A DNA stretch of 64,000 nt, from assembly GCF_003018255.1 (NCBI RefSeq), contig NZ_CP027440.1; one strand, given 5' to 3'. Positions 40,895-41,103 of the stretch are shown here, piece by piece. The DNA is from Escherichia coli. GTDB taxonomy: Bacteria > Pseudomonadota > Gammaproteobacteria > Enterobacterales > Enterobacteriaceae. Made by a program: the position numbers and the translations under genes. The notes under the pieces are model-generated. The model searched no databases. It saw only the letters and a program-made list of their open reading frames with translations, and had not been told where the DNA came from. Positions within the stretch are counted from its first letter, which is position 1, and the number at the start of each line of letters is the position of its first letter.

Positions 40895-40905
40895 GTTAAG
40901 CCAAC

Positions 40906-40938
40906 AGCATCCGGCTATCAGGCCGGATGCTGTTTTTG
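40906..40938 (+). terminator. Putative rho-independent terminator/attenuator between hcp and vgrG
   Basis: agcatccggc-tatcag-gccggatgct hairpin followed by a T-run directly after the hcp stop. Confidence 0.5.
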
Positions 40939-41103
40939 TATTACGCCGTAAAAAGAAAGGTTGTCAGTAAGGGATTACGTTCACGGGAGATGGCGGATGC
41001 CGGAAACTTCGGCGGTAGCGTGCCTGAACGCAAGCGTAACACTGTACTGTTACAGCCGCTTTAACAGCGAACTGTCTGTTTTTCCTTAAACCCGGAGGTT
41101 GCT

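What the first reader, a model, noticed from the sequence alone, without database searches (positions are those of the whole stretch)
40895..41103. Intrinsic terminator-like hairpin between hcp and vgrG
A GC-rich hairpin with a T-run follows the hcp stop directly, about 165 bp before vgrG. Partial termination here would let hcp be made in excess over vgrG and rhs, matching the expected stoichiometry of tube to spike.
Basis: inference. Interest (0 to 1): 0.3.

Follow-up and report, generated by a model that had tools for sequence, protein, structure and literature searches.

The report
Known hcp terminator, plus RfaH ops site
The hairpin after the E. coli type VI secretion tube gene hcp is a real, evolutionarily conserved terminator that was already described experimentally in EHEC in 2026.

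Summary
Observation confirmed. A perfect 14-bp hairpin (40903-40934, -25.2 kcal/mol) starts 8 nt after the hcp stop codon. It is followed by UUUUUGUAUU and lies about 165 nt before vgrG. It is the most stable clean hairpin with a T-rich tail in the 64-kb window. Across 24 homologous copies from about 12 enterobacterial genera the stem pairs almost everywhere, with compensatory double changes at 8 of 13 positions.

The window is an E. coli chromosome carrying the aspV-island T6SS. The hairpin is identical in O157:H7. Its description matches region I of "h3R" in EHEC EDL933 (Vazquez-Lopez 2026, PMC13141884): position +8, 32 nt, 14 pairs. That paper reports it as a terminator and an hcp3 mRNA stabiliser, so the finding is already known.

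Whether termination is partial is unresolved. In that paper vgrG3 mRNA rises, but less than hcp3, when the upstream promoter is induced. RT-PCR across the junction was nevertheless negative.

One addition: the rest of the intergenic region holds an 88-nt block (40962-41049) conserved across genera. Its core is an exact RfaH ops consensus, GGCGGTAGCGTG (41011-41022), on the vgrG sense strand. The EHEC paper never mentions RfaH. CFT073's hcp-tssH junction has the same order of hairpin then ops, and RfaH binds that locus (PMC9765446). My working model is a leaky terminator followed by RfaH loading.

The parts
40376..40894 (+). hcp (T6SS tube protein), 172 aa
   Evidence: ORF list. Pfam T6SS_HCP E=5e-31. 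RefSeq WP_001142958.1 'Hcp family type VI secretion system effector' in a 100% identical E. coli record.
40903..40934 (+). Terminator hairpin: 14-bp perfect stem with 4-nt loop UAUC. Matches the description of region I of 'h3R' in EHEC.
   Evidence: -25.2 kcal/mol, z = -8.2. Covariation in 24 homologues. Identical in O157:H7. Described at +8, 32 nt, 14 pairs in PMC13141884.
40933..40942 (+). U-tract TTTTTGTATT. The first two T can also close the stem.
   Evidence: Sequence. A T-rich tail follows the stem in all 24 homologues.
40962..41049 (+). 88-nt block conserved across enterobacterial genera, with variable flanks on both sides. It contains ops. The function of the remainder is unknown.
   Evidence: Alignment A2. 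nhmmer E = 1e-17 to 1e-30 in 24 loci (plus one truncated copy at 1.5e-15), and only one copy in the window. No coding signal. No Rfam family.
41011..41022 (+). Exact consensus RfaH ops element GGCGGTAGCGTG, on the non-template (sense) strand for vgrG
   Evidence: 0.07 GGCGGTAGNNTG matches expected by chance in the window. Present at +114 to +132 after the hcp stop in the loci that carry the block (exact in most, one base off in one locus, degenerate in another) and absent at that position from loci without it. Consensus as given in bioRxiv 10.1101/2025.02.08.637259 and in Data set S2A of PMC9765446.
40963..40979 (+). 5' arm of a conserved inverted repeat flanking ops (GTCAGTA...ATTACG)
   Evidence: RNAalifold and pair counts: 85.7% of cells paired, but no covariation beyond shuffles.
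41035..41049 (+). 3' arm of the inverted repeat (CGTAAC...TACTG)
41094..41098 (+). vgrG Shine-Dalgarno GGAGG, 5 nt before the ATG
   Evidence: Sequence. GGAGG or GGGAGG is conserved before the ATG in homologues.
41104..43212 (+). vgrG (T6SS spike), 702 aa
43279..47487 (+). rhs toxin gene, 1402 aa, downstream in the same orientation
40927..41064 (+). 45-aa ORF annotated as 'hypothetical protein' in some genomes (WP_001297813.1 in LY180). Probably the ORF the EHEC paper calls EDL933_0238, which I did not verify. Judged not to be a gene.
   Evidence: It starts inside the hairpin's 3' arm. ORF limits are not conserved, indels are not multiples of 3, and there is no third-position bias. No Pfam hit.

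Best explanation
The hairpin is the intrinsic (Rho-independent) terminator of the hcp transcript.

Step 1. RNA polymerase coming from the tssB/hcp divergent promoter transcribes hcp, and most polymerases release at the 14-bp hairpin plus U-tract. The retained 3' hairpin also protects hcp mRNA from 3' exonucleases. Together these give abundant Hcp.

Step 2. A minority of polymerases read through.

Step 3. About 75 nt later they meet a consensus ops site (41011-41022). There RfaH can load and make them pause-, Rho- and H-NS-resistant for the long vgrG-rhs operon.

Basis for each step:
- Hairpin geometry and its conservation are shown here.
- Termination and mRNA stabilisation are shown in the literature for the EHEC orthologue.
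- Leakiness is inferred.
- RfaH action at this ops is inferred from an exact consensus, its conservation, and precedent at other E. coli T6SS loci.

Sub-confidences: terminator plus mRNA stabiliser, about 0.85. The terminator being leaky and feeding vgrG, about 0.55. ops being a working RfaH site, about 0.65.
For: Hairpin:
- Geometry and stability. It is the best clean terminator-like hairpin in the window.
- In 24 distinct homologues from Escherichia, Citrobacter, Yokenella, Pseudocitrobacter, Atlantibacter, Buttiauxella, Lelliottia, Superficieibacter, Trabulsiella, Phytobacter and Enterobacter, stem positions 1-11 pair in 21-24 of 24 copies. Eight of the 13 positions show compensatory double changes, and every copy has a T-rich tail.
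- The second E. coli T6SS paralogue keeps the stem through two double changes.
- Unrelated hairpins occupy the same place after hcp in Dickeya, Pectobacterium, Aeromonas, Photobacterium and Providencia. Overall 53 of 80 loci have one, against 5-10 of 80 in shuffles.

Experiments on the EHEC orthologue (PMC13141884), whose hairpin description matches the identical sequence found in O157:H7:
- Deleting region I cuts hcp3 mRNA to about 6% and halves Hcp3 or an upstream GFP reporter.
- Deleting regions I and II raises the spanning transcript and doubles a downstream mCherry reporter.
- vgrG3 mRNA rises less than hcp3 on upstream induction.

ops:
- Exact 12-mer on the sense strand.
- It is the most invariant part of an 88-nt block conserved across genera.
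- CFT073 hcp-tssH shows the same order, stop then hairpin plus T-run then ops, with an identical 21-mer GGCGGTAGCGTGCCTGAACGC. RfaH ChIP signal is reported at the tssH locus and at a PAAR-vgrG operon in CFT073.
- EAEC ops1, between hcp and clpV, is required for downstream T6SS transcription.
Against: - End-point RT-PCR across hcp3-vgrG3 was negative in EHEC, and the authors favour a separate vgrG3 promoter in region II.
- No 3' end has been mapped, and no in vitro termination assay is reported in what I read.
- ops lies downstream of the terminator, so RfaH cannot help polymerase past the hairpin. The model therefore needs either leak-through or an unidentified promoter between 40940 and 41010. 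My consensus scan finds no sigma-70-like promoter in the intergenic region on either strand.
- RfaH dependence of this particular locus has not been tested.
- About 76 of the 88 conserved nucleotides remain unexplained.
Confidence: 0.6

Rival explanations
1. Complete terminator with separate operons, which is the published authors' model. hcp is monocistronic. vgrG-rhs is transcribed only from its own promoter inside the intergenic region (their region II), and the ops site serves polymerases starting there.
For: - No hcp3-vgrG3 RT-PCR product in EHEC.
- Promoter-prediction software placed a promoter in region II.
- In V. cholerae orphan clusters vgrG is reported as separately transcribed from hcp (reference 75 of PMC13141884).
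- In known RfaH operons ops sits 27-135 nt after the transcription start. That would fit a start at about 40945-40985, inside the 5' half of the conserved block.
Against: - No sigma-70-like promoter is found in 40895-41103 by the consensus scan.
- The EHEC h3R-mCherry reporter showed almost no activity under many conditions.
- vgrG3 mRNA did respond to induction of the swapped upstream promoter.
- Relatives with 69-84 nt hcp-vgrG spacers have a hairpin but no room for a downstream promoter.
- In EAEC Sci-1, which has the same hairpin-ops layout in CFT073, genes downstream of hcp are transcribed from the single upstream promoter region.
Confidence: 0.3
2. The hairpin is mainly an mRNA 3'-end stabiliser or processing barrier rather than a site of polymerase release. 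In this reading the 3' end of hcp mRNA is made by nucleolytic trimming back to the stem.
For: Deleting region I reduced hcp3 mRNA to about 6% and halved an upstream GFP reporter, independently of which gene sits there.
Against: - A conserved U-tract immediately follows the stem in all 24 homologues. That is needed for termination, not for exonuclease blocking.
- Deleting regions I and II increased spanning transcript and downstream reporter output.
- The two functions are not exclusive, since intrinsic terminators normally do both.
Confidence: 0.08
3. A chance palindrome, a REP-like repeat, or a DNA-level site, with no RNA function.
For: The stem contains GCCGGATG, an 8-mer that I recall also occurring in E. 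coli REP elements (from memory, not tested here). The generic terminator scan is not enriched in this 8-kb stretch.
Against: - Single copy in the window even with 3 mismatches allowed.
- In E. coli genomes the listed matches to the intergenic part of the query lie beside hcp; shorter matches elsewhere cover only the vgrG start.
- Compensatory changes keep the pairing while the sequence drifts.
- 0 of 200 shuffles fold as well.
Confidence: 0.02

Closest known systems
h3R region I of EHEC EDL933 hcp3-vgrG3 (Vazquez-Lopez et al., Microbiol Spectr 2026, PMC13141884)
   Same: Same locus type and, by its description, the same hairpin: +8 after the stop, 32 nt, 14 pairs. The hairpin sequence is identical in O157:H7 ATCC 43890. 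It is reported as a terminator and an hcp3 mRNA stabiliser.
   Different: Nothing about the hairpin itself. That paper gives no comparative evidence and never mentions RfaH or ops. It treats region II as a predicted promoter with predicted Fis, MalT, NarP and MelR sites.
EAEC Sci-1 / UPEC CFT073 hcp-clpV(tssH) intergenic ops1 (Taillefer, Desjardins & Cascales, bioRxiv 10.1101/2025.02.08.637259; Hustmyer et al. 2022, PMC9765446)
   Same: Consensus ops directly downstream of hcp in a T6SS cluster. In CFT073 a hairpin plus T-run immediately follows the hcp stop and ops comes about 100 nt later. The 21-mer GGCGGTAGCGTGCCTGAACGC is identical to the window.
   Different: It belongs to a different T6SS family, and the downstream gene is clpV/tssH rather than vgrG-rhs. 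The rest of the intergenic sequence is unrelated. Those papers do not mention the hairpin. RfaH dependence is shown there, not here.
JUMPStart/ops leaders of waaQ (rfaQ), wzx (rfb) and wza
   Same: Identical 12-nt ops on the sense strand in an untranslated leader.
   Different: The upstream JUMPStart part (cagtg..ggtagc..agcc.gg) is absent here. The T6SS block has its own conserved flanks.
Intra-operon intrinsic terminators (attenuators) that set the ratio of an abundant first product to later genes. Recalled from general knowledge, not tested here.
   Same: A strong hairpin with a U-tract directly after the most abundant structural gene, followed by genes needed in lower copy.
   Different: Leakiness is not measured here, and an antitermination-factor loading site follows the terminator instead of preceding it.

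Membership tests
Intrinsic (Rho-independent) terminator | G+C-rich stem-loop in the transcript | tested here: met
   14 perfect pairs, 8 of them G-C, 4-nt loop, -25.2 kcal/mol, z = -8.2.
Intrinsic (Rho-independent) terminator | U-rich tract immediately 3' of the stem | tested here: met
   TTTTTGTATT at 40933-40942. A T-rich tail is present in all 24 homologues.
Intrinsic (Rho-independent) terminator | Placed downstream of a gene end, on the transcribed strand | tested here: met
   Starts 8 nt after the hcp stop on the same strand. The reverse strand lacks a T tail.
Intrinsic (Rho-independent) terminator | Pairing maintained in evolution (covariation) | tested here: met
   8 of 13 stem positions show compensatory double changes; 21-24 of 24 copies paired at positions 1-11.
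Intrinsic (Rho-independent) terminator | RNA 3' ends or polymerase release at the U-tract | not testable with these tools
   Only indirect published data for the EHEC orthologue: RT-PCR, deletions and reporters. I found no 3'-end mapping.
RfaH ops element | 12-nt consensus GGCGGTAGnnTG on the non-template strand of the target operon | tested here: met
   GGCGGTAGCGTG at 41011-41022 (+), the same strand as vgrG. Consensus as quoted.
RfaH ops element | Lies in an untranslated leader or intergenic region, not inside a translated gene | tested here: met
   Intergenic, 82 nt before the vgrG ATG. The overlapping 45-aa ORF shows no coding conservation.
RfaH ops element | Conserved in orthologous leaders | tested here: met
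   Present at +114 to +132 in 23 loci from about 10 genera. Columns GGTAGC are invariant in 19 of 19 sequences.
RfaH ops element | RfaH occupancy, or rfaH/ops-dependent downstream expression | not testable with these tools
   Shown only for other E. coli T6SS loci: EAEC ops1, and CFT073 tssH and PAAR-vgrG. Taillefer et al. state that the EDL933 T6SS cluster carries ops, without giving a position.
JUMPStart element (39-bp ops-containing leader of polysaccharide operons) | Conserved upstream half (cagtg...ggtagc...agcc.gg) preceding ops | tested here: not met
   Side-by-side comparison with CFT073 wzx, rfaQ and wza leaders shows that only the 12-mer is shared.
REP/BIME dispersed repeat | Many copies per genome in intergenic regions | tested here: not met
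   One copy in the window at up to 3 mismatches. In E. coli genomes the listed matches to the intergenic part of the query lie beside hcp.
Structured cis-regulatory RNA (riboswitch or leader), for the 88-nt block | Conserved secondary structure supported by covariation, or a match to a curated family | tested here: inconclusive
   No Rfam match. The inverted repeat pairs in 85.7% of cells, but all five measures are reached by many shuffles (158-290 of 500). The RNAalifold covariation term is -0.2.
Small protein gene (annotated 45-aa hypothetical) | Conserved reading frame with conserved ends and a third-position substitution bias | tested here: not met
   ORF limits vary from 0 to 77 aa among homologues, and indels are not multiples of 3. 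One homologue (Buttiauxella sp. A111) has a 2-nt deletion in the core that by my reading brings a stop into frame. Substitutions by codon position are 12, 12 and 18.

The most novel reading that the evidence does not exclude
hcp genes of at least two E. coli T6SS families carry a two-part gate: an intrinsic terminator followed by an RfaH-loading ops site.

The terminator caps Hcp-only transcripts. Only the polymerases that leak through, or start just after it, become RfaH-modified and can finish the long, H-NS-silenced spike and toxin operon.

This would identify the unexplained inhibitory 'region II' of EHEC h3R as an ops pause site. It could also explain why replacing h3R with strong promoters still gave no VgrG3, if the replacement removed ops, which the paper does not specify.

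The other roughly 76 conserved nucleotides of the block may be a further, undescribed component, such as a promoter, a protein site, or an RNA stem enclosing ops.
Probability: 0.45. Interest if true: 0.45.

Novelty: already known. Interest (0 to 1): 0.25.

Why it matters
The hairpin itself adds nothing new. It was published for the same locus in EHEC in April 2026.

What may be useful to T6SS researchers is the link between two recent lines of work that do not cite each other on this point.
- The EHEC h3R study found that the hcp3-vgrG3 intergenic region blocks VgrG3 expression and could not explain region II.
- The RfaH studies showed that ops sites control other E. coli T6SS operons.

A consensus ops sits inside h3R and is conserved across about 10 genera. 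This gives a concrete, cheap hypothesis for why VgrG and Rhs cannot be expressed in EHEC in the laboratory: test rfaH and ops point mutants, or overexpress RfaH.

Tried and rejected
- Rfam, whole window at gathering thresholds and the locus at E <= 10: no family for the hairpin or the block.
- RNA structure for the 88-nt block: RNAalifold gave a weak consensus (-11.5 kcal/mol, covariation term -0.2). Pair counts for the inverted repeat plus the GCCGG/YCGGC hairpin did not exceed shuffles. RNA structure is therefore neither shown nor excluded.
- Small-protein reading of the annotated 45-aa ORF: rejected.
- Sigma-70 promoter in the intergenic region: none found by the consensus scan. I also compared candidate hexamers and a sigma-54 -24/-12 pattern with the sequence by eye and found only off-spacing matches. 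That was not a tool test.
- CsrA site idea (GGAUG in a small GGC-GGAU-GCC hairpin at 40992-41001): a lead from memory only, with no supporting test, so I dropped it.
The rest were chance matches in unrelated contigs, so nothing was gained for covariation.
- REP-element reading of the hairpin: rejected.

Full report
**What the window is.** The 1-kb stretch around the finding is 100% identical to E. coli chromosomes and is annotated there as Hcp followed by VgrG. In strain DETEC-S792 the surroundings are a complete T6SS cluster. The genes tssA to tssB lie on the opposite strand. hcp, vgrG and an RHS core protein run rightwards, with yafV, ivy and fadE beyond them. In the window hcp is 40376-40894, vgrG 41104-43212 and rhs 43279-47487, all on the + strand. 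Pfam confirms all three. The finding's coordinates are exactly the hcp-vgrG intergenic region.

A 14-bp perfect hairpin with a 4-nt loop lies at 40903-40934, beginning 8 nt after the hcp stop. It is followed by TTTGTATT, and the T-run occupies 40933-40937. It folds at -25.2 kcal/mol, with z = -8.2 and 0 of 200 shuffles as stable. The generic scan finds as many terminator-like sites in this 8-kb stretch as in shuffles, 7 against 7.3, so a hit alone means little. This hit, however, is the strongest of them. In my own scan of all 64 kb on both strands it is the most stable clean hairpin with a T-rich tail. The reverse strand lacks a T tail. The hairpin is single-copy and not a dispersed repeat.

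**Comparative evidence.** A genome scan with the Hcp protein returned 80 loci.
- A homologous hairpin (CAGCATCC...GGATGCTG and variants) follows hcp in Escherichia, Citrobacter, Yokenella, Pseudocitrobacter, Atlantibacter, Buttiauxella, Lelliottia, Superficieibacter, Trabulsiella, Phytobacter and Enterobacter.
- I registered 24 distinct copies from the stem base. Positions 1-11 pair in 21-24 of 24 copies. Eight positions show compensatory double changes, for example G:C to A:T, or T:A to C:G. A T-rich tail follows in every copy.
- The second E. coli T6SS paralogue, whose intergenic region is 78% identical, keeps the stem through two double changes.
- Unrelated hairpins occupy the same place after hcp in Dickeya, Pectobacterium, Aeromonas, Photobacterium and Providencia.
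- Overall, 53 of 80 loci have a hairpin of -10 kcal/mol or better plus a T-rich tail within 30 nt of the stop. Shuffled downstream sequences give 5-10 of 80.

A terminator directly after hcp is therefore a general, selected feature.

**It is already published.** Vazquez-Lopez et al. (Microbiol Spectr, April 2026, PMC13141884) studied the hcp3-vgrG3 intergenic region of EHEC EDL933 and named it h3R.
[quoted passage not shown] In O157:H7 ATCC 43890 this part of the sequence is identical to the window.
- Deleting the hairpin region (region I) cut hcp3 mRNA to about 6% and halved Hcp3, or GFP placed upstream.
- Deleting regions I and II raised the hcp3-vgrG3 spanning transcript and doubled a downstream mCherry reporter.
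- They conclude that region I terminates transcription and stabilises hcp3 mRNA.

**Partial or complete termination.**
- The authors' end-point RT-PCR across the junction was negative, and they propose separate operons with a promoter in region II.
- Their own Fig. 1B text says vgrG3 mRNA rose, but less than hcp3, when the swapped upstream promoter was induced. That is what a leaky terminator would give.
- Their h3R-mCherry reporter showed almost no promoter activity under many conditions.
- My consensus scan finds no sigma-70-like promoter in the intergenic region.
- Relatives such as Enterobacter asburiae have the hairpin only about 20 nt before the vgrG ribosome-binding site. That leaves no room for a promoter after it.

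The 165 nt after the hairpin is not neutral spacer.
- Aligning 21 homologous intergenic regions shows an 88-nt block, window 40962-41049, conserved across genera. The sequence on both sides of it is variable.
- A profile of the block finds it once in the window, and only in loci that also have the homologous hairpin.
- It is not coding. ORF limits differ between species and indels are not multiples of three. One species has a 2-nt deletion in the core that by my reading brings a stop into frame. Substitutions show no third-position bias.
- It matches no Rfam family.
- A conserved inverted repeat (GTCAGTA..GTTACG / CGTAAC..TACTG) flanks the core, but pair counts show no covariation beyond shuffles.

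**The core is an ops site.** The most invariant part of the block is GGCGGTAGCGTG at 41011-41022 on the + strand. This is the exact consensus of the RfaH ops element, as quoted by Taillefer, Desjardins and Cascales (bioRxiv 10.1101/2025.02.08.637259) and as listed for the RfaH-bound loci of CFT073 in Hustmyer et al. 2022 (PMC9765446, Data set S2A).
- It is on the sense (non-template) strand for vgrG and lies in an untranslated region.
- It occurs at +114 to +132 after the hcp stop in the loci that carry the block. It is exact in most, one base off in one locus and degenerate in another. It is absent at that position from loci without the block.
- The upstream JUMPStart half seen at wzx, rfaQ and wza is not present.

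**Precedent.**
- In EAEC Sci-1, ops1 lies between hcp and clpV and is needed, together with rfaH, for transcription of downstream T6SS genes.
- In CFT073, RfaH ChIP signal appears at tssH and at a PAAR-vgrG operon when H-NS and StpA are removed.
- I fetched the CFT073 hcp-tssH junction. It has the same layout as the window: stop codon, a 9-bp hairpin plus TTTTTGTTG (-18 kcal/mol), then ops about 100 nt later. The 21-mer GGCGGTAGCGTGCCTGAACGC is identical to the window.
- An orphan vgrG in an O26 strain carries an ops-like GAGCGGTAGCAT about 340 nt upstream.
- Taillefer et al. remark that the EDL933 T6SS carries ops elements, without giving a location. The EHEC h3R paper never mentions RfaH, ops or antitermination.

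**Model.**
- Most polymerases stop at the hairpin, giving abundant and stable hcp mRNA.
- Those that pass, or that start at an unidentified promoter in the 5' half of the block, reach ops and load RfaH. They can then traverse the long vgrG-rhs operon, which H-NS silences in EHEC according to PMC13141884.
- This offers an explanation for the inhibitory activity the EHEC authors mapped to region II: an ops pause, with limiting RfaH on a multicopy plasmid.
- It may also explain their remark that replacing h3R by Lac or AraBAD promoters still gave no VgrG3. This holds only if the replacement removed ops, which the paper does not specify.
- These last steps are inference.

**Verdict.** Interest is low for the finding as given. 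The terminator-then-ops layout, and the unexplained remainder of the conserved block, are a modest lead that can be tested.

Noticed in passing
window 40962-41049: An 88-nt block conserved across about 10 enterobacterial genera, with variable flanks. Only the 12-nt ops core has an explanation. The upstream GGGAGATGGCGGATGCCGGAAAC and the flanking inverted repeat (40963-40979 / 41035-41049) have none.
   Followed up: yes
L088 (CFT073 NC_004431.1) 1055-1245: The hcp-tssH junction of a different T6SS family has the same layout: hairpin plus T-run right after the hcp stop, then consensus ops. The 21 nt GGCGGTAGCGTGCCTGAACGC are identical to the window. The papers on ops1 do not mention the hairpin.
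   Followed up: partly
window 12006-12017 (+) and 27496-27507 (+): Two further matches to GGCGGTAGNNTG: GGCGGTAGGCTG and GGCGGTAGCATG. The second lies inside tssH on the antisense strand, so it is probably not functional. No ops consensus is present on the minus strand for the roughly 14-kb tssB-tssA operon.
   Followed up: partly
window 3371-8595 and 16740-16816: An rRNA operon (16S, tRNA-Ile, tRNA-Ala, 23S, 5S) is followed by tRNA-Asp. A second tRNA-Asp lies at 16740, ahead of the T6SS cluster. This fits a T6SS island inserted next to a tRNA-Asp gene.
   Followed up: partly
window 60439-60516 and 61175-61252: Two Rfam naRNA4 (REP-derived nucleoid-associated RNA) matches above the gathering score.
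   Followed up: no
L028 (Trabulsiella guamensis) 2099-2139 and about 2350: The conserved block is cut off in the middle, after CCGGATACTT, before its ops position, and unrelated sequence follows. A separate consensus ops occurs 331 nt after the hcp stop. This looks like a recombination junction inside the block.
   Followed up: no
L020, L023, L032 (Lelliottia, Citrobacter werkmanii): The hairpin and the ops block follow hcp even where my tblastn detected no vgrG within the stored 1.5 kb downstream. The module seems to travel with hcp rather than with vgrG.
   Followed up: no
L094 (E. coli O26 RM10386) about 1140-1180; L087 (CFT073) about 930-965: Orphan vgrG / PAAR-vgrG islands carry a shared AT-rich leader with an ops-like site (GTGCAG..ATCATGT.ATCAGGGT.G.GCGGTAGC.TA) 300-340 nt upstream. 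This leader differs from the hcp-linked block.
   Followed up: partly
L001 13639-13845 (window about 38938-39144, minus strand): A 68-aa hypothetical protein is annotated between tssB and tssC in the T6SS structural operon.
   Followed up: no
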